Virus record (IMG/VR): IMGVR_UViG_3300035498_000413
Span: 56,611 to 76,610 of that record
Source of the DNA: an uncultured virus (IMG/VR IMGVR_UViG_3300035498_000413)
Lineage: Duplodnaviria; Heunggongvirae; Uroviricota; Caudoviricetes
Reading direction: 5' to 3' (one strand)
DNA: 20,000 nucleotides
In this document: positions 1 to 17,399 of the stretch, in pieces
Numbering within the stretch: position 1 is the stretch's first letter
How the letters are laid out: the number at the start of each line of letters is the position of its first letter
The notes under the pieces: generated by a model
What the model was told of the DNA's origin: nothing
Seen by the model: the letters and a program-made list of their open reading frames with translations, nothing else
The model's database searches: none
Made by a program: the position numbers and the translations under genes

Positions 1-603
1 TTTTGCTTCTTTAACCTGGGTCCAAGGAATTTCCTTCAAAGAAGCCTCATAGTTCTTAGTAGCCATGTAATTCAGCAGAAGATATTCAAGTCGGAACAGA
101 TGGCTGAGACACTTGGAATAATCTTCTCTTCCATCACGGATTCTCTTATGCTCATTCTTGGCCATACCTCGAATATTGTTGGCTAAAGCAAGAGGATGAA
201 GTCTTACAAGATCTTCGCGTGCGGCGGTGAGTAGGTCCCATTCATCCTTATACTTAGGATTCACGATTTTATAATCCGTGAACAAAGTTTCAAGAATCGA
301 GATACTCGGCTTCGTAAGACTCTGATACCAAAGTCTAATGTCCTTAACCACGATATGCCACGTATCATTGGTGGTAGTTTCATAAGTAACCATCTCACCA
401 TTGATAAGCTGGTCAAGAGTAGGAGTTACAAGAAGAACAGTATCAACATCGGACTGCTCAGTATCAAGCCCATAGTTGCCAGAGCCGTAGTAGAACAGCC
501 CTACGATGTTATTCTCTTTTACGCAGCGGTCCGCGCACAGCGCATAAATTTCTTCCATGCGAGCCATAATCCATTCATCAGAGTGAAAATTCTTCATAAC
601 CAT
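1..603 (-). CDS. Pol-beta superfamily nucleotidyltransferase (RlaP/Nuc-transf-like); runs off the window edge
   Basis: Not in the ORF track. Manual translation from ATG at 603: MVMKNFHSDEWIM...GLFYYGSGNYGLDTEQSDVDTVLLVTP...VKDIRLW...ILETLFT. The GSxNYGL...SDxD motif is typical of this family. AAGGA RBS upstream. Confidence 0.75.
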   Translation of the reverse strand, partial: MVMKNFHSDEWIMARMEEIYALCADRCVKENNIVGLFYYGSGNYGLDTEQSDVDTVLLVTPTLDQLINGEMVTYETTTNDTWHIVVKDIRLWYQSLTKPSISILETLFTDYKIVNPKYKDEWDLLTAAREDLVRLHPLALANNIRGMAKNEHKRIRDGREDYSKCLSHLFRLEYLLLNYMATKNYEASLKEIPWTQVKEAK

Positions 604-613
604 CAATCCTTTC

Positions 614-1213
614 TCAAACAATAATAATTGGTTCTACTTCTTGATTCGTGCTTAAAATACAAAAAGGACGTTGTACTCCCTCACATAGCTCTTCTGCTGC
701 TTCAAGAGCGTAAGTAATATGTTCAACTGGAGTTAGCTTATCTTTAAAATGCTTTGTCGTAGTAATTAGACTTGCTAGTGCTGCATTTTCACCACAACCA
801 ACCGCCGCAAATCCAGAATTCGATCGCAAAACAGAATAATCACTTTGAATTTCAAATAGCTTATCTTCTACTCCAAGGAGGAAGTTTCCACCTCGTTCTT
901 CGCTAGGCTTATCAATAATATTTTCTTGAAATAAAGTTATTAGATTAGGAATAAAAGTTTTAACCATATATTTATGGTCAATATCTTTTCCTTTATACCA
1001 ATCAATTTCAGGAAAAAGTTTTTCACTATACTTTAACAAATCCATATGGCGAAACGACCCTGTGCTTCCCATAATGACATTTTTAAATGTATCATGTCTA
1101 AATACTTTTGGCAAAGCTTGTACGTCTTTAGTATAACCATTACTACCTAAGGCATCTCCGCCTATCCAAACCTGATTAGTTTCTTTATCTGTAAATCCAA
1201 CAATGCAAGTCAT
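614..1213 (-). CDS. HslV/proteasome-beta-like Ntn-hydrolase (Thr protease)
   Basis: Begins MTCIVG (Thr becomes N-terminal nucleophile after Met removal); GGD, PKVF and AAVGCG match Ntn protease motifs. TGA stop. Confidence 0.75.
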   Translation of the reverse strand: MTCIVGFTDKETNQVWIGGDALGSNGYTKDVQALPKVFRHDTFKNVIMGSTGSFRHMDLLKYSEKLFPEIDWYKGKDIDHKYMVKTFIPNLITLFQENIIDKPSEERGGNFLLGVEDKLFEIQSDYSVLRSNSGFAAVGCGENAALASLITTTKHFKDKLTPVEHITYALEAAEELCEGVQRPFCILSTNQEVEPIIIV

Positions 1214-2461: not shown

Positions 2462-3934
2462 TTATCGAATCATGTCATACTTCTTTAAAGTTTCAAACAT
2501 CAGTTCTTTACCAGTCTTGCCGGTAAGAATAGAATCCAAAATGACCGGGGAGTAACCACTTACAAAAGAAACACCGTTCTTAGGAGCCTCAGGAATAAGG
2601 TTATGTCTAGCATTGACATTCCAATATACAAGATTAGGCATCTTGTATCCATATTCTTCCCATTTGTTTCTAATAGTCTCCATACCAGAGTAAAGGCCCT
2701 CTAAGCTTCTGTAGTTCGTCATACTATCAAATTCCATATCAGAGATAATGATAATATTCTCAGGAAGTTCAGACTGCGGGAGCTGATGCTTTAAGGCGGT
2801 ATTGAGCAGTAGATTAAATACAGCTTCAATATTAGTGTTATCGCAGAGCATATTATCATAGATATTAATTACCTGACTACAGAAATCTTGTCCAGTAATC
2901 TCTACTAGTTCAGGTCGGCTAGAAAAAGAAATATAATGGTTATAGAAAGGACTCCCAGGATTACACTTTCCAGCGCAATACAAACCTAACGAGATTGCAA
3001 CTTCGATCGGGCGTCCGTACATACTACCAGAAGTATCTACCACTGCAATACCATTGAATTTTGCGCCCTTAAAATAGTCGGTAAGATTTCCCCAATACTT
3101 GTTATATATTGCTCTATCTTCTAAGTCAGTATAGTGCATATCATAATAGCTCTTACCCATAACCTTATGCACTACATCAGCAGGATACAGAGTTCCAGCA
3201 TGGACTTTAGTATTCTTAGACTGAATAAATTCCTGATATCGCTCAGAAGTTTCCTTATTCTTCAAAAAAGCTTTAGAATACTTCAAACCAGCCTTAGAAG
3301 GAACAGCCGAGAAATCAATCTCATCCCATCTCTTATCACTCATAAGACGCTCAAGAACGTTAGAATAATTCCGCAATTCTGACAGAGTCTTACGATACAG
3401 CTTGGGAGTCATATGAAGATATTCTCGAATCTTCTTAGCCTTTCTTCGAGTTTCTTGACTAGAAGTATTTTCACTAGGAAGCCATTTAGCAAGAAGGCTA
3501 ATAGAATCTTCCTTAAGAGCGTTCTTAATATCCATCGCAAGCTGTTCTGCGATAAATTGCATAACCTCAGCTTCAACCGGAGTATCAAACAGCTCGAATA
3601 AATCGTCCCATCTACCAAACTCAGGAATATATCCAAGATTCCGCAGAACTGCATCAGGGTCATAATTAGCCAACCACTTCAAACAAACTCGGAAAAAGGC
3701 TCTTTCGCCCTGGCCTCCGCGCGCATCACGCAAGTAAAACAAGCACTTCAAAGCAAAAGTAGGATTCTCTCGATAAGCAGAAGCAAAAAGTGCAATCGTA
3801 TCTTCTTTACTACGCTCTCTATATGCGCCACCAAGGCTAAAGAGATCGAACACTCGATCTGCAGTAGTAGAATAACTCACGCCGCCATTTTCAGTATAAG
3901 TCTTAGATGCTTCAATCTTTAATTCATTTAACAT
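2462..3934 (-). CDS. DUF2828-family TROVE/Ro60-like + vWA protein
   Basis: Motifs TENG, RDARGGQGER, GRWDDL, AKWLP, vWA MIDAS VVDTSGSM, SDMEFD and VYWN. The start is moved to ATG 3934 (MLNELK) because of an AAGGAG RBS and because the longer ORF overlaps the promoter. Confidence 0.85.
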   Translation of the reverse strand: MLNELKIEASKTYTENGGVSYSTTADRVFDLFSLGGAYRERSKEDTIALFASAYRENPTFALKCLFYLRDARGGQGERAFFRVCLKWLANYDPDAVLRNLGYIPEFGRWDDLFELFDTPVEAEVMQFIAEQLAMDIKNALKEDSISLLAKWLPSENTSSQETRRKAKKIREYLHMTPKLYRKTLSELRNYSNVLERLMSDKRWDEIDFSAVPSKAGLKYSKAFLKNKETSERYQEFIQSKNTKVHAGTLYPADVVHKVMGKSYYDMHYTDLEDRAIYNKYWGNLTDYFKGAKFNGIAVVDTSGSMYGRPIEVAISLGLYCAGKCNPGSPFYNHYISFSSRPELVEITGQDFCSQVINIYDNMLCDNTNIEAVFNLLLNTALKHQLPQSELPENIIIISDMEFDSMTNYRSLEGLYSGMETIRNKWEEYGYKMPNLVYWNVNARHNLIPEAPKNGVSFVSGYSPVILDSILTGKTGKELMFETLKKYDMIR

Positions 3935-4000
3935 ATAAAATCTCCTTTTTGCTGACTTTTCTTTTTTCAAGAAAAGTATCTCTCTTAACTTTCTATATAC

Positions 4001-4029
4001 ATTATACAATTTTTATAATAAAATTTCAA
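4001..4029 (-). promoter_or_regulatory. sigmaA-type promoter
   Basis: TTGAAA-17 bp-TATAAT followed by GTATATAGAAAGTT. Confidence 0.75.
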
Positions 4030-4562: not shown

Positions 4563-5153
4563 TCACGAACTGCTAGATGTTTGGCTACAATCTGTAGTAC
4601 AGGTATTTCCGCTTTTACACTTGGAGCTTGTTGTATTACCTGATTTACATAAGTTACAGCCTTTACAGCTATCACAAGTATTGCAACCAGTATTGCAAAC
4701 AGTACACTGATTTTTTTCATAAGTTAAATCATTAGCTTTATTGGCTAAATCTTCAAAATAAGAGCCATAAATATAAGTTTTTCCTGCTGTTGCTCTTTTG
4801 GAGCTTCCCACTAATGCAGCATAATTATTAAACCAAGATGCTTTAACTTCTTTATCAGTTTGTGTTGTAATTCCGCTGGTACTCTTGCCCCCAATACCTT
4901 TAGATCTTAAAGCTTTAACATATGCAGGAAGCCTATTCCAATCGGTAAGTTTAATTAATTCACTTCCAGCAGTTACCCCGCCATTCCATGCAAACTTATT
5001 AGAGCAATCGATACTATAAACTTCTTGAACTTTACAATACGTTTGTGCATCATCACAGGTTGTACAATTACCATTGTCACAATTATTACAACTATCATTA
5101 CAAGTATTGCAGCCATCGCAGTCTTGACAGCTAACACAAGTTTCACAACTCAT
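4563..5153 (-). CDS. Cys-rich (Cxx)n protein, candidate radical SAM substrate
   Basis: Start ATG 5153 (MSCETCVSCQDC) with AAGGAG RBS; 196 aa; 22 Cys in two terminal clusters; overlaps the rSAM stop codon. Confidence 0.75.
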   Translation of the reverse strand: MSCETCVSCQDCDGCNTCNDSCNNCDNGNCTTCDDAQTYCKVQEVYSIDCSNKFAWNGGVTAGSELIKLTDWNRLPAYVKALRSKGIGGKSTSGITTQTDKEVKASWFNNYAALVGSSKRATAGKTYIYGSYFEDLANKANDLTYEKNQCTVCNTGCNTCDSCKGCNLCKSGNTTSSKCKSGNTCTTDCSQTSSSS

Positions 5154-6798
5154 TTTTCTTCTCCTTTCTACAATAATTTTTATAATGACATTCATTATCT
5201 AAATAATCTTTAAAAACTAAGTTATTTTCTTCTACTAAACATTTCATCATATTAACAGCGTGTTTAAACAAAATTTGGTTCCACCTACAAGCTACTTCTG
5301 GATTGATAAAGAAATCTTCATAAGTATCATAGTTAGAAGAAGGACAACCATTGGTCTGGCACACCTGCCGTAAGGGGCAAGTTTTGCAGAGTTCAGGCTT
5401 CTCACACTCATTTATTGCTTCTTTTGTATATTCATCTAACAAAGCTTCATGCTTTTTTCTATCTACGCCATTCCAAATATCACCGATAAAGAAGAAACTA
5501 TTTCCATAAGAATCTTGCTCTTGACAAGCATAAATTCTACCATCATAAGAAATAGAAGCAGAAGTAGTACCAAGGCCGCATCTAAAAGGCTCGCGATGAA
5601 TAGAAACATTATTAAATCTATTATGATAGAACTGTAAATCTCTATTTAATATATCTTCATAAGTTTTATCAATACGAGAGAAAGAAGTAAAAGGTTTATG
5701 ACCCTCAGAAAACTGTAGATACATCAACGCAAAAATCTTCTCTACTTCTTCATCAAGTTTTTGAATATTTTCTTCTGACCAAGTTTCTCTACCATTAGGC
5801 ATTGTAAAGAAATTGCGGAAACCGTGCTCCATAGCGAAAACATACGAGTTAAAAGTGCCATCAACTGTAGCTTGGTCAATGGTTGCTCTCATAGTGGTGT
5901 TTGGAAAATTCTGTAATAAATAGGAAATATTGGAAGCCGCCGCCTCATAACTACTTTGCCCATTCCGCATTGGACGATTTTTATCTTGAACTTCTTTAGG
6001 ACCATCGAAAGAAAGATGGGGATAGATATCATACTTCCGCATAAAATCAATTCTTTCCTTGTCTAGCAGCGTCCCATTAGTGGTCATTGTAAGAGTAATA
6101 GTATCTCCATATTTCTCTCTAATATGCTTAGTCAGCGGCACAATAATACTATCCCACATTATAGTAGGTTCACCGCCAAAGTAAGTAATAGAAGGATCTT
6201 GCTTAATTCCAGTTAATTCTTCCTTTTGTTTAACATTATTCATTAAAAAATCAACGCTTTGTTCTGCAATTTCGTAAGTCATATAGTGGTTACATTGCTT
6301 AACAAAGCAGTTATGAACAGCAAAACCATCTGCAAAATAAGTATGTTCACTAGTCTCAAAATTATAAACCTGCGTAGTTTCAAAAATTTCTTCGACAGAT
6401 TCAATTATAGAACTATATAGCCCTATATCTCCAAATATGTAAGCCACATCGATCCCAGGCTTTAAATCTTTTACCTGGGTCCATTTATTTACTCCAGTTA
6501 AGATAGGATGATTTCCTGTAAGATAAATTTTATGTTTATCCTTCGTAACAATTTTAAATAAAGTTCTAGCTTCTCTTACAAAAATATTAAGAACTTTAGT
6601 TGTTTTTACTCTATGGGGAGCTTCTTCTTCAAACCCCATAACTCTATCAGCGATTTCAATATCTTCAATATTTTTCGTGCTACCATCAGCCATTAAGATC
6701 TTAGTGCCGGCTGGTGCGCAATACTTGCATTCTAGGTTACACGCGTCAGTGAGGTTCAAACACACGCTACTAAAAAACGGGTAATGTTCTTTATACAT
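5143..6798 (-). CDS. radical SAM/SPASM enzyme containing a mini-intein
   Basis: CNLECKY[intein]CF gives CxxxCxxC; also FGGEP, TTNGTLL, SFDG; SPASM region CGLG...DGRIYAC...IGDI...CKTCPLRQVCQTNGC...C. Confidence 0.92.
   Translation of the reverse strand: MYKEHYPFFSSVCLNLTDACNLECKYCAPAGTKILMADGSTKNIEDIEIADRVMGFEEEAPHRVKTTKVLNIFVREARTLFKIVTKDKHKIYLTGNHPILTGVNKWTQVKDLKPGIDVAYIFGDIGLYSSIIESVEEIFETTQVYNFETSEHTYFADGFAVHNCFVKQCNHYMTYEIAEQSVDFLMNNVKQKEELTGIKQDPSITYFGGEPTIMWDSIIVPLTKHIREKYGDTITLTMTTNGTLLDKERIDFMRKYDIYPHLSFDGPKEVQDKNRPMRNGQSSYEAAASNISYLLQNFPNTTMRATIDQATVDGTFNSYVFAMEHGFRNFFTMPNGRETWSEENIQKLDEEVEKIFALMYLQFSEGHKPFTSFSRIDKTYEDILNRDLQFYHNRFNNVSIHREPFRCGLGTTSASISYDGRIYACQEQDSYGNSFFFIGDIWNGVDRKKHEALLDEYTKEAINECEKPELCKTCPLRQVCQTNGCPSSNYDTYEDFFINPEVACRWNQILFKHAVNMMKCLVEENNLVFKDYLDNECHYKNYCRKEKKNEL
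6310..6720 (-). mobile_element. mini-intein (137 aa, no homing endonuclease)
   Basis: Block A CAPAGTKILMADG, block B LTGNHPIL, block F VYNFET, block G HTYFADGFAVHN followed by Cys+1. Confidence 0.92.
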
Positions 6799-6844: not shown

Positions 6845-6919
6845 TGGCAGAGGCGCTTCAGAATCGAACCAAGACCCGAGGGGTTAGAGCCCTCTGTGCT
6901 ACCATTACACTACACCTCC
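6845..6919 (-). tRNA. amber suppressor tRNA, anticodon CUA (probably Gln-charged)
   Basis: GGAGGTG TA GTGT AATGGTA GCAC A GAGGG CT[CTA]AC CCCTC GGGT CTTGG TTCGATT CTGAAG CGCCTCT G CCA. G73; 1-nt bulge in the T stem. Confidence 0.9.
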
Positions 6920-7020: not shown

Positions 7021-7072
7021 GATAAGATTTGTTAAAACATCATCGCCACGAGAAGGCTCTTATCTTGATGAC
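7021..7072 (-). ncRNA. minimal HDV-like (theta) self-cleaving ribozyme
   Basis: P1 GTCATC/GATGAT with a G-U wobble at G1, P2 GATAAGA/TCTTATC, P3 GCC/GGC, L3 TTCTCGT, J4/2 ...TAACAAA. G1 lies 2 nt after the tRNA-Ser discriminator. Confidence 0.85.
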
Positions 7073-7454: not shown

Positions 7455-8639
7455 TCAAAAATCAAACCATGTAACACTATCTAAAGCAGAAGCTACGTCA
7501 TCCAAAGTGGTATTTTTCCCCAATAAATGATATTGAGAACTATAGATAAAGTAAGCTATATCTCCAGCGTTTATTACACCAGCTTTAATAGCTGCTCCGT
7601 TATAGTAAATACTTTTTGCGGTTTTAGAATTAATGCTTAAAGTAGCATTTGCAGGTACATCATAAGTAAATTTAACAGCAACGATGCCTCCAGTAGTTAA
7701 AGAATAGCTACTTAAAGAAGCTGTTTTGGCAGTAGTAGCTGCCGCTGTTGAGCACGTTACATATCCCTATCCCAGTGAAGCATTAGAGTAAGTAGAATTT
7801 GCATCACCAGTAGCCCACCAACCAGTATAAGTAGTTCCATTAATATTTACTCCAGAACGATAGGTTAATGTAACAAGATAATTGGCCCCATAATGCGTAG
7901 TTAATCTTGAAGTTGCCCATCTATAACAATCAATAGCGCCTGTAGTAGTACCATCGTCGAGAGTTAAATTTAAAGTAACATTAGTACTACTCACAGAAGC
8001 ATAAGGAAGCCAATAATTAATACAAAGTCCATCATATAATGCTTTGACACCATGTAAATTACCAGTCCAATCTGCGGTAGAAGCTGTCTGAGTGCCCATT
8101 ACAAAGCGATTATCAGTTAGATTGATAGTAACATTAGAAGAACCATCAAAAGAAGCAGAGCCCGACTCATCGCCGTCCACAGTTATTGTGCGGGCAGTGG
8201 TTAATTTAGGTACTGAGTCTATAGAAGCCCAAGTCGCGTCTCCACGTAAGAACTTAGATTGGCTACCTGCGGAAGGCTAGGGCACTAAACCCCTTGTACC
8301 TGCCGTGCTCGCACTTGCGCCAGTAAATGTATCAACATTATTCTAAACCACAGTCCAGTCTGTTGCTTTATAGGAAGAACTATACGCAGAAACACAAATA
8401 ATCATGTCTCCTGATTCTATACTTCCTATATTTGTTATACTAAAAGAGGCAGAGGCTTTGTAAGTCCAACCAACTTTATAATCCGTTAATCCTGTAATAT
8501 CGGCAGCACTTGAGACTGTACCCTTAAAGATAAGTCCTGATGCGAGGGTCGTCTCAATAATGTCAAGACGATCCCTCGCAGCAGTATCTTTTAGAGTGTA
8601 AGTGGTGCTGCCTACTTTAATATTAGCTAAATCTGCCAC
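7455..8639 (-). CDS. tail-fibre-like protein, 394 aa when TAG=Gln (3 internal TAG)
   Basis: Joins ORFs 8343..8639 and 7767..8180 plus an unlisted C-terminus in one frame, through TAGs at 8343-45, 8277-79 and 7767-69 (DWTVV*NN, GLVP*PSAGSQSKFLRGDATW, SNASLG*GYVTCSTAAAT). Ends at TGA right before the terminator. Confidence 0.88.
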
Positions 8640-9883: not shown

Positions 9884-10246
9884 TTATTTATAAAAACGAA
9901 TAAGCTCTTGAGAGTTATTCACTTCTACGCTAAATTTATTCTCTAATTCATCGGTAATAACTTTCTAACTTATCGCTCCATCTGTATTAGTTCCTAAACT
10001 TTGATAAAGTTTCATAATACCCGCGGAATCCTCAGATGCCTAGAGGTATGAAAGCTAGATCCATGGAGTAATACCATCACCGATTTTTATTTGTAGACCA
10101 TCTTTAGCGGTATCTACAAAACAAATTTGTCCATTATCAGGGACATAGGTATCTTCATAATTAAAATAATTATCTCTTTTTGAACCCTTATCTTTCATAA
10201 GAGTCCATAGTATACTTACGCCTGATTGGTCTAGGAATTTAGACAC
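9884..10246 (-). CDS. virion structural/fibre-associated protein, 120 aa when TAG=Gln (3 internal TAG)
   Basis: Extends ORF 10055..10246 through TAGs at 10055-57, 10040-42 and 9965-67: KIGDGITPWI*LSYL*ASEDSAGIMKLYQSLGTNTDGAIS*KVITDELENK...RFYK-TAA. This fills the gap to the next RBS. Confidence 0.85.
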
Positions 10247-10264: not shown

Positions 10265-11017
10265 TTATACGCAAATAGTTTTAATTTCATCCTCGGTTAA
10301 GGCTTCAGGAATAACAGCCTCGATATCTTTCTTAACTGCTACTTCATGCTCAGGATCATCAGCAACATAATTACCAGAAGCTTTATCTTCTGCATTGTGA
10401 TAGAACATACCTTTTTGATACACGTTTAAACGTGAACCGATCCAGTCGCCATTAACCTCTTTATCAGCATAAATTTGAGCAACCATGCCATTGGCGCCAC
10501 CATCATTTACTCCAACGAAAGATTCAGTACCATCAGTATGAATAAATTTAGCGCCACCGCCAGAAGTTTCATTCCAAACAAGCGACTCGCCATTCACGTC
10601 TTTAATGCTCTAAGTAGTTTTATTATCAAGATCAGACTTAGTAGCATAATTACTCAGATCAATAGAGCCAGCAAGTTTATCCCAAGAATCTCCAGTCCAA
10701 ACAACATTATCACCAGGATTAATACCATTATCTGCGTCTGCATTTATGACATTATAAACGTCTCCAATAGCTGCATCAGCAGGTAATTCAGAATAATTAT
10801 CAATACTACCCTTATAAGTAAATACTCTAGTTACGTCTGTAGTAACTTCTGCAATAGCTTCTTGAAGTTTATCTTCTGTGACATAATCACTTAAGATTTC
10901 AACTAATTCAGAGCTAGTTTTATAGTTAGTTAAAGCTTCAGAAATAGCGTCTGCATTATAGCCCTTAATTTGCGCCCATAATGTAACTAAACCAGCTTGG
11001 TCAAGAACTTTTACCAT
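10265..11017 (-). CDS. virion structural/fibre-associated protein, 250 aa when TAG=Gln (1 internal TAG)
   Basis: ORFs 10610..11017 and 10265..10597 are in the same frame and joined by TAG 10610-12 (DNKTT*SIKDVNGE). Contains an FTYKGS...GDVYNV...WDKLAG module. Confidence 0.85.
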
Positions 11018-11033
11018 TTGATAACCTCCCCTT

Positions 11034-11378
11034 TTAATTTAATATTGAAAGAATTTCCTTTTCAGTTAAAGGAATATTCTTGTCAACCCATTCAAGATTT
11101 CCGTCGCTCCCTTTAGAAGGGATTTGACCGGCGGTCGCTGCACTAAAACCGTATAATTCTATGGCATCGCCGTATAAAGTCAAACTTTTATTATCAATAG
11201 AAATGGATGCTTCTCCCTCGAAGTATTTTAAATCATTCCAAGCAGTAGTGCCATCTCCAATTTTAAGTTTGCCTGTATCTTTTTCATATCCAGGCTCGCC
11301 AGATTCAAGTATTGGATTTAATCGAATCCATGTATTTGCAGAACCACGCTTAAATTTAATTATTGTTGTTTCAGCCAA
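11034..11378 (-). CDS. Mtd_N/hyaluronidase-N-like fibre anchor domain protein
   Basis: IKFKRG...W...NPILESGEPGYEKDTGKLKIGDGTTAWNDLKY is the characteristic motif; TTG start with GAGGAG RBS. Confidence 0.8.
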   Translation of the reverse strand: MAETTIIKFKRGSANTWIRLNPILESGEPGYEKDTGKLKIGDGTTAWNDLKYFEGEASISIDNKSLTLYGDAIELYGFSAATAGQIPSKGSDGNLEWVDKNIPLTEKEILSILN

Positions 11379-11401: not shown

Positions 11402-11704
11402 TTAGTCTAAGTCGCCACCATCATAGAGATTGTTTTCACCTGAAGAAGAAAAGTTATCATCTAAATCTCCGCCATCATAAGAATTATTTTCGCCTGAAGA
11501 TGAACTTTCATTTCCAGTCGTACTCTACAAAATCCATATTTTTGAACCATTTAAAATATAAACATTAGAGTTTTCAATCACAAAAGCTTTAGAACCAACT
11601 CCACAATCAGTAGGCAAATCAGCTACATCACTTTGATAATCGCATAAGAACTCAGCCATATTATAGAAAGTCTTGCGAATATTATTTGTACTAGCTGTAA
11701 TCAT
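11402..11704 (-). CDS. small putative structural protein, 100 aa when TAG=Gln (1 internal TAG)
   Basis: ATG 11704 with GGGGAG RBS. Reading through TAG 11525-27 adds an acidic tail with two copies of SSSGENNxYDGGDLD, ending at TAA just before the next RBS. Confidence 0.8.
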
Positions 11705-11793
11705 ATGCAAGTCTCCCCTTTTCAATACTATCTCATAGTATTCTAAAAAATTAAAACTATGAATTATATATTTTTGTCCAGGGTTTTGAGCAT

Positions 11794-11827
11794 AAAAGAA
11801 AGGCTTCCCTCGTAAGAAGGAAGCCTT
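11794..11827 (-). terminator. intrinsic terminator ending the large tRNA array
   Basis: AAGGCTTCC...GGAAGCCTT stem followed by TCTTTT. Confidence 0.75.
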
Positions 11828-11831
11828 AAAA

Positions 11832-11872
11832 CTAGATACTACAATCACCAGAAAGTTTGCTGTTGGTATCTA
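11832..11872 (-). ncRNA. ACAGCAA stem element copy 1 (unknown small RNA)
   Basis: TAGATAC-CA-ACAGCAA-loop-GTATCTAG, 3 nt after the tRNA-Ser(GCU) CCA. Confidence 0.6.
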
Positions 11873-11875
11873 CTA

Positions 11876-11965
11876 TGGCAGAGGATAAGAGATTCGAACT
11901 CTTGCGGCCGTAGCCCTATCAGTTTAGCGAACTGACCCCTTATAACCTAACTTGGGTAATCCTCT
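11876..11965 (-). tRNA. tRNA-Ser(GCU)
   Basis: AGAGGAT...TCAGT TC[GCT]AA ACTGA, long variable arm, ATCCTCT G CCA; C at position 33. Confidence 0.9.
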
Positions 11966-12022
11966 ATGTATCCTCTGCGTTTGCGTGGGCTTGGAACCAC
12001 CATCATCGGCCGCATTATACAT
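11966..12022 (-). ncRNA. twister ribozyme (type P1)
   Basis: ATGTA TAA TGC GGCC GATGATG GTGG TTCCAAGC CCAC GCAAAC GCA GAGGA TACAT. P1 ATGTA/TACAT, UAA cleavage loop, P2 TGC/GCA, P4 GTGG/CCAC, T1 TCC/GGA, T2 GC/GC. Confidence 0.88.
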
Positions 12023-12027
12023 CATAT

Positions 12028-12087
12028 TCATCTATTGCTGATAGTGGGAGTCTCATTTCCAAAAATAAAATCATCAATATCGTACAT
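12028..12087 (-). CDS. putative 19-aa peptide MYDIDDFIFGNETPTISNR
   Basis: AAGGAG 7 nt upstream of ATG; TGA lies just before the twister. Confidence 0.35.
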   Translation of the reverse strand: MYDIDDFIFGNETPTISNR

Positions 12088-12116
12088 TCATATTCTCCTT
12101 TCTAAATTTAAAATAA

Positions 12117-12176
12117 CTAGACACAGGCAAAAATTTTATAACATTAAATCTTTAGAATGGTTGCTGTGAGTGTCTA
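12117..12176 (-). ncRNA. ACAGCAA stem element copy 2
   Basis: TAGACAC-TC-ACAGCAA-loop-GTGTCTAG, 3 nt after the tRNA-Lys CCA. Confidence 0.6.
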
Positions 12177-12179
12177 AAA

Positions 12180-12256
12180 TGGTGCGTCAGGTGAGACTTG
12201 AACTCACGCATTTCCAAATTAAAAGTTTGGAGCCTTACCAACTTGGCCACTGACGC
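12180..12256 (-). tRNA. tRNA-Lys(UUU)
   Basis: GCGTCAG...CCAAA CT[TTT]AA TTTGG...CTGACGC A CCA. Confidence 0.9.
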
Positions 12257-12910: not shown

Positions 12911-12984
12911 TGGCAGCCGATGAAGGGATCAAACCTCCACCACGAGAGTCAAATTCTCGGATGCTATCACTACACCAATCGGCT
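12911..12984 (-). tRNA. tRNA-Gln(UUG)
   Basis: AGCCGAT...CGAGA AT[TTG]AC TCTCG...ATCGGCT G CCA; A19/U56 variant elbow. Confidence 0.85.
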
Positions 12985-13443: not shown

Positions 13444-13472
13444 ATTATATAATATTTTTTATTAAATTTCAA
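13444..13472 (-). promoter_or_regulatory. sigmaA-type promoter
   Basis: TTGAAA-17 bp-TATAAT followed by ATTTATAGAAATT. Confidence 0.78.
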
Positions 13473-15643: not shown

Positions 15644-16075
15644 TCAATCTTCCAGTTTTGTCCACTCTCCATCATTATCAACGTCAAAAATAAAGGAAGA
15701 TCTTCTTGCGCCCATAACTTCAGCATAGCTATCCAGTCTTTCGTATTCTTCTTTCAGATTCTTCCAATCGCCCTCTCTATAGTCATAGAAGAAATATGCA
15801 GGAGCTTCCGCGTATCTCAATTCTTCAGGGATCCAATAGTCCTGAAGGTCATGAATTTGGATAAGTGCTTCAACGGCTCTCGGAGTTGCAAAATGAATAA
15901 AACCAACTTCCTCAAGTTCGACATCTTCATTAGGAGTAATTTCTCCATCGCAATCGTAGAGGAAAAGTTCTCCCTGTACTTCCTTCAATTTAAGACCTAC
16001 TTCATATGCAATACAGGAGTTTTCATCCTCAAAATCAGTTCCATCTTCTGCTCTATAGATTTCAATCTTTTCCAT
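15644..16075 (-). CDS. hypothetical phage protein, YxAxDGTxF...CxxYE family (paralog 1)
   Basis: MEKIEIYRAEDGTDFEDENSCIAYE; AAGGAG RBS. Confidence 0.75.
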   Translation of the reverse strand: MEKIEIYRAEDGTDFEDENSCIAYEVGLKLKEVQGELFLYDCDGEITPNEDVELEEVGFIHFATPRAVEALIQIHDLQDYWIPEELRYAEAPAYFFYDYREGDWKNLKEEYERLDSYAEVMGARRSSFIFDVDNDGEWTKLED

Positions 16076-16286
16076 TTAGAATCTTCTCCTTTTCTTCATC
16101 AGTAATCTCAAGGAAAGTAGAGTCAATAAGCGAAATAGTTACGCTATATAAATCATCTTTGTAGTAAGCATAAAGTCTTTCGCTAACTTCTACTAAAGAA
16201 CTTACATTAGTCATAACAATATTGTCTTTTAGTTCTTCGTTATCTACGAAGAAATGAACAGTACAGACTGCTGTTAAATCACCCAA
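16062..16286 (-). CDS. hypothetical 74-aa protein
   Basis: Probable TTG start at 16286 (MGDLTAVCTVHFF) with GGGGAG RBS; this avoids a long overlap with 16279..16752. Confidence 0.6.
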   Translation of the reverse strand: MGDLTAVCTVHFFVDNEELKDNIVMTNVSSLVEVSERLYAYYKDDLYSVTISLIDSTFLEITDEEKEKILNGKD

Positions 16287-16752
16287 AGTTGATATACTCC
16301 CCTTTCTTTTCTTTAGCTGTAAGGATATTCGCAATGTCGCTCGCGGATTTAAGATGCTTATCATCATAAGAAGCTTCATTCCATCCAAGCAGAAGGAATT
16401 TAAAATGCGGCGGCCACTGCTCAGGGAGGGTTTCTTCTGAGACAATATGCCACCCAATACCTACCGCATATCGTGCATTAGAGAGTTGACACCATTCTTC
16501 ATCTGCTTTAGTGCGGATTCCACGAATAACGAGAATTGGACCTTTAGAGAACCCGCGCACCCGCTTTAAATCTTTAGGTTCTTCTTCCTTGACTTTCTTC
16601 CCGTAATTCTTAGCTACCTCACCCTCAGTATACCAGCGGACGGCGCGTCGATTCTTGGTATTGGGATGCTCGACATCTATGTACATCTTTCCATTTTTCT
16701 CGTATGGGTCAGAAAGACGCTTGTAGTTTGCAAAAGAAGGTGCTGTTGACAT
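16279..16752 (-). CDS. hypothetical protein
   Basis: 157 aa, AAGGA RBS, TGA stop. Confidence 0.75.
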   Translation of the reverse strand: MSTAPSFANYKRLSDPYEKNGKMYIDVEHPNTKNRRAVRWYTEGEVAKNYGKKVKEEEPKDLKRVRGFSKGPILVIRGIRTKADEEWCQLSNARYAVGIGWHIVSEETLPEQWPPHFKFLLLGWNEASYDDKHLKSASDIANILTAKEKKGEYINFG

Positions 16753-16756
16753 AATA

Positions 16757-16993
16757 TCAATCCTTTCTAGCTAAATGGAACCAATAATTTGCGAACTCTC
16801 TACCTTCGGGATCACGGTTTGTGCCATTAACATAGATATTGGCATAATAAGAATCAGAAGGAAAAGCAGCAGGAAGATTCTCTCGTGCATATTTTCCAGC
16901 GATAAGAAGAGCATCTAAGAGTTGCTGCTTCTGCTGCTTAAGTTCTTTAATAGTGCTTAACAAAATTTTTGCATCCTCTTTAGAAATCTCCAT
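16757..16993 (-). CDS. hypothetical protein
   Basis: 78 aa, GAGGAG RBS, first gene after the promoter. Confidence 0.7.
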   Translation of the reverse strand: MEISKEDAKILLSTIKELKQQKQQLLDALLIAGKYARENLPAAFPSDSYYANIYVNGTNRDPEGREFANYWFHLARKD

Positions 16994-17025
16994 GAACTTT
17001 TCTCCTCTCTCAACTTTCTATAAAT

Positions 17026-17054
17026 ATTATAATGTATTTTTTTAAAAAAATAAA
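17026..17054 (-). promoter_or_regulatory. sigmaA-type promoter
   Basis: TTTATT-17 bp-TATAAT followed by ATTTATAGAAAGTTGAG. Confidence 0.65.
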
Positions 17055-17077
17055 AAGCTCTGCATCCGCAGAGCTTT
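17052..17077 (-). terminator. intrinsic terminator
   Basis: AAAGCTCTGC-GGAT-GCAGAGCTTT followed by a T tract. Confidence 0.8.
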
Positions 17078-17093
17078 AAAATCAAAAGAAGAG

Positions 17094-17399
17094 TTAAAGG
17101 CCCAACATCTTTAGAAGAGAATCAACCTTCGCTTGGTCTGCGGCAGTAGGTTCAACTTTCTTCGGAGCAGGGTCATCGGTAGTCCAATCGTTAGGGTTAG
17201 TGGGCTTTGGAGCTTCGGCTCGCGCAGGATCAAATTCAGCTTTCGGCATTGTGATGCTAATAGAAAACTGAATCTTTTCATCTCCGTCATCCGCTACCAC
17301 GTATAGCTTCTTCGCTTCTGTTCCTAAATATGCGTTTCCAAAAGCTTCCGTAATAGTCTTTACAACCTTCTCACGTGCAATATCGCCTCTACGTGCCAT
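17094..17399 (-). CDS. hypothetical phage protein
   Basis: 101 aa, AGGAGG RBS; MARRGDIAREKV...LLKMLGL. Confidence 0.75.
   Translation of the reverse strand: MARRGDIAREKVVKTITEAFGNAYLGTEAKKLYVVADDGDEKIQFSISITMPKAEFDPARAEAPKPTNPNDWTTDDPAPKKVEPTAADQAKVDSLLKMLGL

What the first reader, a model, noticed from the sequence alone, without database searches (positions are those of the whole stretch)
11966..12022. Twister ribozyme whose P1 stem ends exactly at nucleotide 1 of tRNA-Ser(GCU)
Seen: the full twister type-P1 core, with T1 as TCC/GGA (CCC/GGG in the rice twister as I recall it), and zero spacer to the tRNA 5' end. Both Ser tRNAs in the window therefore carry a ribozyme, of different classes and at opposite ends. 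Inference: the phage cuts its polycistronic tRNA transcripts with two ribozyme classes. Cleavage at U12017/A12016 would open P1 and leave a leader of about 51 nt for RNase P. I do not recall twisters described as tRNA 5'-leader processors.
Basis: partly seen in the sequence, partly recalled or inferred. Interest (0 to 1): 0.8.

Follow-up and report, generated by a model that had tools for sequence, protein, structure and literature searches.

The report
Twister ribozyme abutting a phage tRNA
A genuine self-cutting twister RNA sits flush against the front end of a serine tRNA gene in an uncultured phage that rereads a stop codon, a placement not found in print that offers a testable job for a ribozyme class whose natural role is unknown.

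Summary
Window 12022-11966 (minus strand) is a type-P1 twister ribozyme. Rfam RF03160 matches it end to end at 50.9 bits (E 6.6e-9 for the window). That is below the curated cut-off of 67.2, but six other phage twisters I scored also fall below it (49.4-62.8 bits).

It is the P3-less form common in phages. It fits all 18 pairs (P1, P2, P4, T1, T2) that hold, and in part covary, in 36 distinct sequences. The U-A form of T1 is the commonest one. A 5-bp P1 ends at U11966, and tRNA-Ser(GCU) starts at A11965. Cutting at U12017|A12016 would leave a 51-nt leader for RNase P.

The other serine tRNA is followed by an HDV-like (theta-type) ribozyme candidate (7072-7021).

Cleavage, the order of events and any link to RNase P are inferred, not shown. 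A tRNA flush to a twister appeared only in this phage lineage: 3 of 105 strict matches in IMG/VR, 0 of 27 in metagenomes, 0 of 1 in genomes. The only relatives are about 98% identical here. The aligned relative lacks the theta element, so the two ribozymes are not one inherited system.

I found no paper describing twister-tRNA adjacency. Earlier notes of this scan record twister-type ribozymes upstream of tRNAs or tRNA look-alikes in other phages.

The parts
11966..12022 (-). Type-P1 twister ribozyme, P3-less form (57 nt): P1 12022-12018/11970-11966; P2 12014-12011/11979-11976; T2 12010-12009/11990-11989; linker 12007-12002 closed by C12008-G12001; P4 12000-11998/11987-11985; T1 11995-11993/11973-11971
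   Evidence: RF03160 50.9 bits, E 6.6e-9, model 1-68/68. Fits all 18 pairs of the structure counted on 36 distinct P3-less twisters.
12016..12017 (-). Predicted scissile bond, between U12017 and A12016
   Evidence: Aligns to the U-A of the model's 'UAA' junction. The review PMC5408937 (passages) places the scissile bond between a less conserved U next to P1 and a highly conserved A. Cleavage itself was not tested.
11876..11965 (-). tRNA-Ser(GCU), class II, A1-U72 acceptor AGAGGAU/AUCCUCU, discriminator G11879, encoded CCA 11878-11876
   Evidence: ARAGORN; Rfam tRNA 47 bits.
11800..11827 (-). Intrinsic-terminator-like hairpin (12 pairs, then a U tract) that closes the operon 48 nt after the tRNA
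   Evidence: Consensus scan.
12023..12179 (-). 157-nt AU-rich spacer between tRNA-Lys and the twister. It holds AAGGAG (12100-12095) and a 19-codon ORF (12087-12028) whose stop codon lies 5 nt before P1.
   Evidence: Read. No significant fold (z +0.97). No Rfam match. 156 of 157 positions identical in relative G002.
12180..12256 (-). tRNA-Lys(UUU), the gene upstream in the same transcription unit
13444..13472 (-). Best sigma-70-like promoter match upstream of the unit (TTGAAA-17-TATAAT, 11 of 12)
   Evidence: Consensus match only. No promoter-like site was reported on the minus strand between tRNA-Lys and the twister.
7021..7072 (-). HDV-like (theta-type) ribozyme candidate after tRNA-Ser(UGA): P1 7072-7067/7044-7039 with G1.U; P2 7064-7058/7027-7021; P3 7057-7055/7047-7045; candidate catalytic C7031
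   Evidence: Segment-by-segment match to a published theta parse (Kienbeck 2024, supplementary file 5). It is the only hit of my ad hoc descriptor in the 76.6-kb record. There is no Rfam hit. P1.1 has only one Watson-Crick pair. The element is absent from relative G002.

Best explanation
The element is an intact, probably active, P3-less type-P1 twister ribozyme inside a polycistronic phage tRNA transcript. The likely unit runs from a promoter-like site at 13472-13444 through tRNA-Leu, tRNA-Gln, an ORF, tRNA-Ile, tRNA-Lys, a 157-nt spacer, the twister and tRNA-Ser(GCU) to the terminator at 11827-11800.

As the RNA is made, the twister folds (P1, P2, P4, pseudoknots T1 and T2). The 2'-OH of U12017 then attacks the next phosphate. 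The upstream RNA ends in a 2',3'-cyclic phosphate at U12017. The downstream piece starts with 5'-OH A12016 and consists of the 51-nt ribozyme body fused to tRNA-Ser.

The 5' strand of P1 (five A/U-rich pairs, about -2 kcal/mol as a duplex) falls away, leaving leader positions -1 to -5 (UACAU) single-stranded. Host RNase P then cuts between U11966 and A11965 to make the mature 5' end.

So the twister does not create a tRNA end. It severs the last tRNA of the operon from the RNA in front of it.

Shown here: family membership and geometry. Inferred: self-cleavage, co-transcription with the upstream genes, the order of events, and RNase P finishing the job.
For: - Rfam RF03160 matches full length at E 6.6e-9. 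It is the only non-tRNA match at E <= 0.1 in the window apart from antisense-tRNA artefacts.
- The sub-threshold score is typical of phage twisters. Six others scored 49.4-62.8 bits, none reaching 67.2.
- On 36 distinct P3-less twisters, 93.4% of cells pair, against 76.0% in shuffles (0 of 500 shuffles reach it). P4 is 100% paired with 3 covarying pairs. The free T1 pair is UA 28 / CG 8 and the free P2 pair is AU 29 / GC 7, with no mismatches. The window sequence fits every pair.
- Stems P1, P2 and P4 are the essential ones and P3 is optional (PMC5408937, passages).
- The two changes in relatives G001/G002 fall in variable positions: a 3-nt linker deletion and one junction base.
- No promoter-like site lies between tRNA-Lys and the twister on this strand, and a strong terminator follows the tRNA.
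- The P1 duplex is only -2.2 kcal/mol.
- Reviews propose that bacterial and phage ribozymes process polycistronic transcripts (PMC6765202 and PMC3088659, passages).
- HDV-like theta ribozymes are known at tRNA 3' ends in stop-codon-recoded gut phages (PMC10879173, sections 7, 9, 10).
Against: - There is no experimental or RNA-seq evidence of cleavage.
- The linker is 7 nt, against 4 nt in 32 of the 36 aligned sequences and 5 nt in 3. Activity with it is assumed.
- Nearest-neighbour folding of twister plus tRNA prefers a different structure. A 10-bp helix forms between the twister strand 11978-11969 and the tRNA 3' end 11887-11878 (-41.4 kcal/mol, against -31.9 for nested twister plus cloverleaf). 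That model ignores pseudoknots and tertiary contacts.
- Fold z-scores are unremarkable (-0.57 and +0.23).
- The arrangement occurs in one lineage only, so the position next to a tRNA could be an accident of phage mosaicism.
- After cleavage, leader positions -6 to -8 remain tied up in T1, which might hinder rather than help RNase P.
Confidence: 0.6

Rival explanations
1. Licensing model. While P1 is intact it holds leader bases -1 to -5 in a helix stacked against the acceptor stem, so RNase P cannot bind. Twister self-cleavage is then the step that makes tRNA-Ser a substrate, tying tRNA-Ser supply to ribozyme activity.
For: - P1 ends exactly at -1, and this geometry is unchanged in the relatives.
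- The P1 sequence varies freely across the family, so it could have been tuned. Here it gives U at -1.
- That bacterial RNase P prefers a single-stranded leader and U(-1) is my own recollection, not from a call.
Against: - P1 is weak (-2.2 kcal/mol).
- P1 is dispensable for twister catalysis (PMC5408937), so it may breathe enough for RNase P anyway.
- No second lineage shows the arrangement.
- After cleavage the folded core still sits 5 nt from the tRNA.
Confidence: 0.2
2. The upstream product is what matters. A type-P1 twister leaves only six bases on the RNA in front of it. Here it would give the tRNA-Lys trailer / mini-ORF RNA a defined 3' end with a cyclic phosphate. The tRNA merely happens to follow and is matured independently by RNase P, so the 51-nt core is excised as waste.
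For: - The cut lies at the 5' edge of the ribozyme.
- A 19-codon ORF with a well-spaced AAGGAG ends 5 nt before P1.
- In other phages the same twister type sits in front of ribosome-binding sites, a RAGATH-33 RNA or another structured RNA rather than tRNAs, so its role is not tRNA-specific.
Against: - The mini-ORF is unsupported: it is too short to search and has no diverged relatives.
- The spacer has no significant fold.
- This model does not explain the exact abutment with the tRNA.
Confidence: 0.2
3. Alternative-pairing switch. The twister strand GCAGAGGAUA repeats the tRNA's 5' acceptor strand, so the tRNA 3' end can pair with either. The ribozyme fold and the cloverleaf then compete with a misfolded 10-bp helix. 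This would make cleavage and tRNA maturation depend on folding order, or on a factor that resolves the competition.
For: - A 10-nt perfect complement exists. Runs of 10 nt or more occur in 14 of 5000 shuffles of the tRNA. The best among the other 10 window tRNAs is 8 nt. Only 7 of 89 distinct twisters carry GCAGAGGAT.
- The minimum-free-energy structure uses this helix.
Against:
- The AGAGGA part is invariant twister core. An AGAGGAU acceptor also occurs in a tRNA-Ser of an unrelated phage contig with no twister (L147).
- Co-transcriptional folding should favour the native twister and the free acceptor strand.
- There is no independent lineage to test covariation.
Confidence: 0.08
4. Inactive relic or chance look-alike with no present function.
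For: - The score is below Rfam's cut-off.
- The linker is unusually long at 7 nt.
- The arrangement is confined to a single lineage.
Against: - E 6.6e-9.
- Every invariant core position and every pair is intact.
- Both sub-lineages keep it, and their differences fall only at variable positions.
- Other phage twisters score equally low.
Confidence: 0.07

Closest known systems
Type-P1 twister self-cleaving ribozymes (Rfam RF03160; review PMC5408937; the discovery paper by Roth et al. 2014 is recalled and was not held)
   Same: Same stems P1-P2-P4, pseudoknots T1 and T2, conserved loop nucleotides and U-A cleavage dinucleotide. The P3-less form with a U-A pair in T1 is the commonest phage form in my scans.
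   Different: It scores under the curated cut-off. It has a 7-nt linker where most have 4 nt. It lies flush against a tRNA gene, a context not mentioned in the passages I read or found by my searches.
Theta ribozymes: minimal HDV-like ribozymes at the 3' ends of tRNAs in stop-codon-recoded gut phages (Kienbeck et al. 2024, PMC10879173)
   Same: A small self-cleaving ribozyme directly next to a phage tRNA, in a phage that carries a CUA suppressor tRNA and in-frame TAG codons. This genome also has a theta-type candidate (7072-7021) and an RNA ligase gene of the kind that paper found enriched.
   Different: The twister is a different ribozyme class, lies on the 5' side, and its cut is 51 nt away from the tRNA end. 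It therefore cannot replace the end-forming enzyme, whereas theta ribozymes cut at the tRNA 3' end. That paper's main text never mentions twister or hammerhead.
Hammerhead ribozymes flanking genes in prophages, and the proposal that bacterial ribozymes cut polycistronic RNAs (PMC3088659, PMC6765202)
   Same: A self-cleaving ribozyme inside a long phage transcript, separating neighbouring genes.
   Different: Those examples separate protein-coding genes. Here the downstream gene is a tRNA that needs a further RNase P step.

Membership tests
Twister ribozyme, type P1 (RF03160) | Stems P1, P2 and P4 in this order, with termini in P1 | tested here: met
   Full-length model alignment 1-68. P1 has 5 bp, P2 4 bp and P4 3 bp, all Watson-Crick.
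Twister ribozyme, type P1 (RF03160) | Pseudoknots T1 (loop L4 with the 3' strand of the internal loop) and T2 (GC after P2 with GC in L4) | tested here: met
   UCC 11995-11993 pairs with GGA 11973-11971; GC 12010-12009 pairs with GC 11990-11989. The free T1 pair covaries in the family: UA 48, CG 39, UG 2, none mismatched, of 89. T2 is invariant.
Twister ribozyme, type P1 (RF03160) | Strongly conserved nucleotides of loops L1 and L4, and the U-A cleavage dinucleotide next to P1 | tested here: met
   All 28 invariant columns of the 36-sequence alignment are matched; many of these were fixed by my search pattern. Against the Rfam consensus the changes are compensated pair changes in P4 and T1, plus U52 to C, a position that varies in phage twisters.
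Twister ribozyme, type P1 (RF03160) | Score at or above Rfam's gathering cut-off (67.2 bits) | tested here: not met
   50.9 bits. The shortfall comes from the missing optional P3. Six other phage twisters, some with P3, score 49.4-62.8 bits, so the cut-off excludes this whole phage group.
Twister ribozyme, type P1 (RF03160) | Site-specific self-cleavage giving a 2',3'-cyclic phosphate and a 5'-OH | not testable with these tools
   No RNA run was listed. Needs a bench assay.
Theta / minimal HDV-like ribozyme (element at 7072-7021) | Nested double-pseudoknot order P1-P2-P3-L3-P3'-P1'-P1.1-L4-J4/2-P2', with G1.U at the base of P1 and a C opening J4/2 | tested here: inconclusive
   P1 6 bp with G.U, P2 7 bp, P3 GCC/GGC, an L3 identical to a published example, and C7031 in place. 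P1.1 has one Watson-Crick pair plus U.U. The exact sequence is not in the paper's tables (0 hits for the 22-mer). No Rfam hit.
Theta / minimal HDV-like ribozyme (element at 7072-7021) | Cleavage site within 5 nt of a tRNA 3' end, usually with no encoded CCA | tested here: met
   G1 at 7072 follows discriminator G7074 and C7073, and no CCA is encoded. Relative G002 lacks the element and encodes CCA.

The most novel reading that the evidence does not exclude
The twister and tRNA-Ser(GCU) form one processing device. Self-cleavage frees the leader held in P1 and so licenses RNase P. The twister's core strand, which copies the tRNA's acceptor strand and can pair with 10 nt of the tRNA 3' end, makes ribozyme folding and tRNA folding interdependent. 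Together with the phage's own RNA end-healing and ligase genes, this would be the first assigned biological role for a twister ribozyme: gating the supply of a phage tRNA.
Probability: 0.15. Interest if true: 0.8.

Novelty: new variant of a known kind. Interest (0 to 1): 0.5.

Why it matters
Thousands of twister ribozymes are known, but their natural function remains speculative (reviews PMC5408937 and PMC6765202, passages). Here the downstream product is a tRNA with a fixed, easily assayed maturation step. That turns the question of what a twister is for into a simple experiment: compare active and inactive ribozyme, and measure tRNA-Ser 5' maturation and abundance.

The case also extends the recent picture of ribozyme-assisted tRNA handling in stop-codon-recoded gut phages. 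That picture so far covers the HDV-like class at the 3' side. This adds a second ribozyme class and the 5' side.

The relative that swaps the theta element for an encoded CCA shows how readily such modules come and go.

If the adjacency proves accidental, the finding reduces to one more phage twister.

Tried and rejected
- Distant relatives:
  - blastn against 50,697 phage records gave one 57-nt tRNA-only match.
  - The neighbouring protein (window 11704-11402, TAG read as Q) found 7 loci in IMG/VR. Only 3 belong to this lineage.
  - An exact 27-mer found one contig, which is identical over the region.
  - The relatives are about 98% identical from 12908 to 11705, so they give no covariation test of the junction.
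- Wider adjacency:
  - The strict twister pattern in IMG/VR gave 105 matches in 103 loci. A tRNA lay within 250 nt in 3, all of this lineage.
  - The same pattern plus a T-loop word in metagenome contigs gave 27 loci. None had a flush tRNA. Three had tRNA-Pro 99-122 nt downstream, behind another structured RNA.
  - In genome contigs the pattern gave 1 locus with no tRNA.
  - The looser search (twister 3' half plus GTTCRA) in IMG/VR gave 17 loci. The flush tRNAs were the same 3. A fourth locus with tRNAs (L147) is not a twister.
  - These scans need exact matches to my motif. They did not cover the P3 and P5 permutations, twister-sister, hammerhead or divergent cores.
- Rfam gave nothing for the HDV-like element.
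- Thermodynamic folding gave no significant z-scores. That is expected for pseudoknotted RNAs and I rejected it as a test.
- Earlier notes of this scan, looked up by place and by sequence, returned nothing.
- Roth et al. 2014 is not held.
- I considered a promoter inside the Lys-twister spacer. None was reported on this strand.
- I considered a chance match. It is rejected by the E-value.

Full report
**What is there**

All 11 tRNA genes of the window lie on the minus strand. They are also all the tRNA genes of the 76.6-kb viral record that holds the window. tRNA-Ser(GCU) occupies 11965-11876 and has an encoded CCA.

At Rfam's curated thresholds only tRNAs are reported. With E-value reporting, the type-P1 twister model RF03160 aligns 12021-11967 over its whole length (positions 1-68). 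The score is 50.9 bits, E 2e-10 for the 601 nt searched and 6.6e-9 for the full window. Apart from tRNAs and two antisense-tRNA artefacts, it is the only match at E <= 0.1.

The score falls short of the 67.2-bit cut-off because the model's optional P3 hairpin is replaced by the linker GAUGAU, closed by C12008-G12001.

Six other phage twisters, five of them from other lineages and some with a P3 stem, scored 49.4-62.8 bits. The cut-off therefore excludes this whole group of phage twisters, and a sub-threshold score is no argument against this one.

**Anatomy**

Read:
- P1: A12022-A12018 with U11970-U11966, five Watson-Crick pairs.
- Junction: U12017 A12016 A12015, with the expected scissile bond after U12017.
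- P2: 12014-12011 with 11979-11976.
- T2: G12010 C12009 with G11990 C11989.
- P4: 12000-11998 with 11987-11985.
- T1: U11995 C11994 C11993 with G11973 G11972 A11971.

The next base after P1 is A11965, nucleotide 1 of the tRNA. With Rfam's 4-bp P1 there is a 1-nt spacer. With the fifth A-U pair there is none. G12023 cannot pair with A11965, so P1 stops there.

**Is it a typical twister?**

A strict IUPAC pattern for the core found 105 matches in 103 IMG/VR loci.

From all 133 strict matches (IMG/VR, metagenome and genome contigs) I kept those without a P3 hairpin and removed duplicates. That left 35 sequences plus the window. My pattern fixed many of the columns, so only the free columns carry evidence.

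On this alignment the 18-pair structure, including both pseudoknots, gave these results:
- 93.4% of cells pair, against 76.0% in shuffles (0 of 500 shuffles reach it) and 27-42% when partners are slid.
- P4 is 100% paired, with three covarying pairs.
- The free P2 pair is AU 29 / GC 7.
- The free T1 pair is UA 28 / CG 8, with no mismatch.

Over 89 distinct strict matches that T1 pair is U-A 48, C-G 39, U.G 2 and nothing else.

The one oddity is the linker: 7 nt here, 4 nt in 32 of the 36 and 5 nt in 3. P3 hairpins are inserted at this same site in other members, so length variation there is tolerated by the family.

A review states that P1, P2 and P4 are the essential stems and that P0, P3 and P5 are optional. 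It also places the scissile bond between a U next to P1 and a conserved A, and reports that P1 is dispensable for catalysis (PMC5408937, passages).

**Context**

The phage carries a CUA suppressor tRNA (6919-6845). Four minus-strand structural-type ORFs continue through in-frame TAG codons when TAG is read as Gln, so TAG recoding is likely.

On the minus strand the best promoter-like site is 13472-13444. No such site lies between tRNA-Lys and the twister. A 12-pair terminator-like hairpin follows tRNA-Ser at 11827-11800.

tRNA-Ser is therefore probably the last gene of a unit that also holds tRNA-Leu, tRNA-Gln, a 108-codon ORF, tRNA-Ile and tRNA-Lys.

The 157-nt spacer before the twister has no significant fold (z +0.97) and no Rfam match. 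It holds AAGGAG, followed 7 nt later by a 19-codon ORF (12087-12028) whose stop codon is 5 nt before P1.

**The second ribozyme**

After tRNA-Ser(UGA), with discriminator G7074 and no encoded CCA, the sequence from G7072 to C7021 parses as follows. The bars separate, in order, P1 | J1/2 | P2 | P3 | three parts of L3 | P3' | P1' | P1.1 | L4 | J4/2 | P2':

`GUCAUC|AA|GAUAAGA|GCC|U|UC|UCGU|GGC|GAUGAU|GU|UUUAA|CAAA|UCUUAUC`

The 13-mer P3-L3-P3 occurs 32 times in that file. My 22-mer does not occur, so this exact element is not in their tables.

P1 (with G.U), P2, P3 and the C that opens J4/2 are all in place. P1.1 has only one Watson-Crick pair.

It is the only hit of my ad hoc descriptor in the 76.6-kb record. 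Rfam has no match for it. I call it a candidate.

**Relatives**

- A 110-kb IMG/VR contig is identical across the region.
- Two others, G001 (84 kb) and G002 (136 kb, estimated 79% complete), each carry one twister in the same Lys-spacer-twister-Ser arrangement.
- Their twister differs by a 3-nt deletion in the linker and one junction base. Both are variable positions.
- The whole stretch 12908-11705 is about 98% identical, and divergence begins only in the next ORF, at 70%. These relatives therefore cannot show selection on the junction.
- At the other locus, the G002 stretch I aligned goes straight from the discriminator to CCA and lacks the roughly 50-nt ribozyme segment. G001 gave the same match length and identity, but I did not align it.

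The two ribozymes are thus separate modules, and the theta-type one is dispensable.

**How general is the adjacency?**

- Of the 105 strict IMG/VR matches, 3 have any tRNA within 250 nt. All 3 belong to this lineage.
- A targeted scan of metagenome contigs (core pattern plus a T-loop word 55-85 nt on) gave 27 loci. None has a flush tRNA. Three have tRNA-Pro 99-122 nt downstream, behind a conserved RNA with two T-loop-like hairpins.
- Genome contigs gave 1 locus and no tRNA.
- A looser IMG/VR scan (3' half of the core only) gave 17 loci. The same 3 have flush tRNAs. A fourth locus with tRNAs is not a twister.
- Elsewhere the same twister type precedes ribosome-binding sites, a RAGATH-33 RNA or that unnamed RNA.

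These scans see only exact matches to my motif. Other permutations and other ribozyme classes were not surveyed.

Earlier notes of this scan report twister-type variants upstream of tRNAs or tRNA look-alikes in other phages (e1-3727006, e1-6036662, e1-6065853). I did not re-examine those genomes.

**Mechanism**

A type-P1 twister cuts at its own 5' edge. The cut therefore separates the upstream RNA, which ends at U12017 with a cyclic phosphate, from a 5'-OH RNA made of the 51-nt core plus tRNA-Ser.

The remaining P1 duplex is only about -2.2 kcal/mol. The 5' strand should leave, freeing leader positions -1 to -5. RNase P must still make the mature end.

I rate this generic severing role at 0.6. 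Two refinements compete at about 0.2 each:
- The defined 3' end of the upstream RNA is what matters.

Nothing here tells them apart.

**An unexplained feature**

The twister strand GCAGAGGAUA (11978-11969) is a perfect complement of the tRNA 3' end UAUCCUCUGC (11887-11878). In other words, the tRNA's 5' acceptor strand AGAGGAU is repeated 12 nt upstream, inside the ribozyme core.

- Nearest-neighbour folding prefers this 10-bp helix: -41.4 kcal/mol, against -31.9 for nested twister plus cloverleaf. Pseudoknots and tertiary contacts are not counted.
- A complement of 10 nt or more arises in 14 of 5000 shuffles of the tRNA.
- The best among the other ten window tRNAs is 8 nt.
- Only 7 of 89 distinct twisters carry GCAGAGGAT.
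- The same acceptor sequence occurs in a tRNA-Ser of an unrelated contig with no twister.

It may be a folding switch, a trace of how the junction arose, or chance.

**Supporting context in the genome**

Just upstream of the window the record encodes (57 of 58 ORFs of 90 codons or more were scanned, one spanning two loci was dropped):
- two calcineurin-like phosphoesterases (50885-51454 and 52219-52857);
- an AAA_33 P-loop kinase (51451-52023);
- a 430-residue PF09414 RNA ligase (54644-55936).

Kienbeck et al. report an RNA ligase family enriched 140-fold in theta-bearing phages (section 7). Such enzymes could heal 5'-OH and cyclic-phosphate ends left by ribozymes, or repair tRNAs cut by host defences. 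This is inference.

**Literature**

Five full-text searches for twister together with tRNA and phage terms found no description of the adjacency. The theta paper's main text never mentions twister or hammerhead. Reviews say the biological roles of twisters remain speculative and suggest processing of polycistronic RNAs (PMC5408937, PMC6765202, PMC3088659; passages). Subscription papers, including the twister discovery paper, could not be read.

**Verdict**

This is a real, canonical twister in a new placement. The functional link to tRNA maturation is plausible and easy to test, but so far it rests on one phage lineage.

Noticed in passing
window 7021-7072 (-): HDV-like (theta-type) ribozyme candidate directly after tRNA-Ser(UGA), which lacks an encoded CCA. 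It also sits in the 5' leader of the suppressor tRNA about 100 nt further on. Relative G002 lacks it and encodes CCA there instead.
   Followed up: partly
window 6845-6919 (-); ORFs 7455-8639, 9884-10246, 10265-11017, 11402-11848 (-): A CUA suppressor tRNA with encoded CCA and its own terminator. Four structural-type ORFs read through 1-3 in-frame TAG codons, so TAG is probably recoded (most likely to Gln).
   Followed up: partly
window 11969-11978 and 11878-11887 (-): A 10-nt perfect complement between the twister core strand and the tRNA-Ser 3' end. The acceptor strand AGAGGAU is repeated 12 nt upstream (14 of 5000 shuffles reach 10 nt).
   Followed up: partly
window 12028-12100 (-): AAGGAG followed by a 19-codon ORF that ends 5 nt before the twister. 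A terminating ribosome would cover P1 and the cut site. Too short to search, and there are no diverged relatives.
   Followed up: no
G000 50885-55936 (L160 12885-17936); window 1-621 and 2462-4009 (-): A set of RNA end-healing and sealing genes: two metallophosphoesterases, an AAA_33 kinase and a PF09414 RNA ligase. There is also a weak RlaP-like nucleotidyltransferase (below cut-off) and a DUF2828+DUF7788 protein.
   Followed up: partly
L109, L118, L122 (also L003, L047, L087, L113): the ~95 nt after the twister: In another phage lineage (contigs up to about 135 kb) the same twister type is followed by a conserved, Rfam-unmatched RNA with two T-loop-like hairpins. Then comes tRNA-Pro or, in L047 and L087, a stretch that to my eye resembles a tRNA, which ARAGORN did not call in either and Rfam did not match in L047 (the only one of the two scanned).
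   Followed up: partly
L020 111-235: A twister immediately followed by a RAGATH-33 RNA (125 bits, above its cut-off).
   Followed up: no
Rfam RF03160 threshold: All seven phage twisters scored here (49.4-62.8 bits) fall under the 67.2-bit gathering score, so default Rfam annotation misses this abundant phage group.
   Followed up: partly
G000 5114-6313; window 11034-11378 (-): Parts of a diversity-generating retroelement: a reverse transcriptase (RVT_1) and a protein with an Mtd_N tropism-determinant domain next to the tRNA operon.
   Followed up: no
window 5143-6798 (-); G000 15734-17305, 30666-33026 and others: Many selfish elements. Hint/intein signatures occur in a radical-SAM protein, in the anaerobic ribonucleotide reductase (split into pieces) and in the DnaB helicase. 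Several GIY-YIG, HNH and LAGLIDADG endonuclease genes are also present.
   Followed up: no
L135/L136 470-1305 versus window 12911-12984: At the tRNA-Gln position the relatives carry about 830 nt where the window has about 75 nt. ARAGORN calls an 89-nt tRNA-Gln there, against 74 nt in the window.
   Followed up: no
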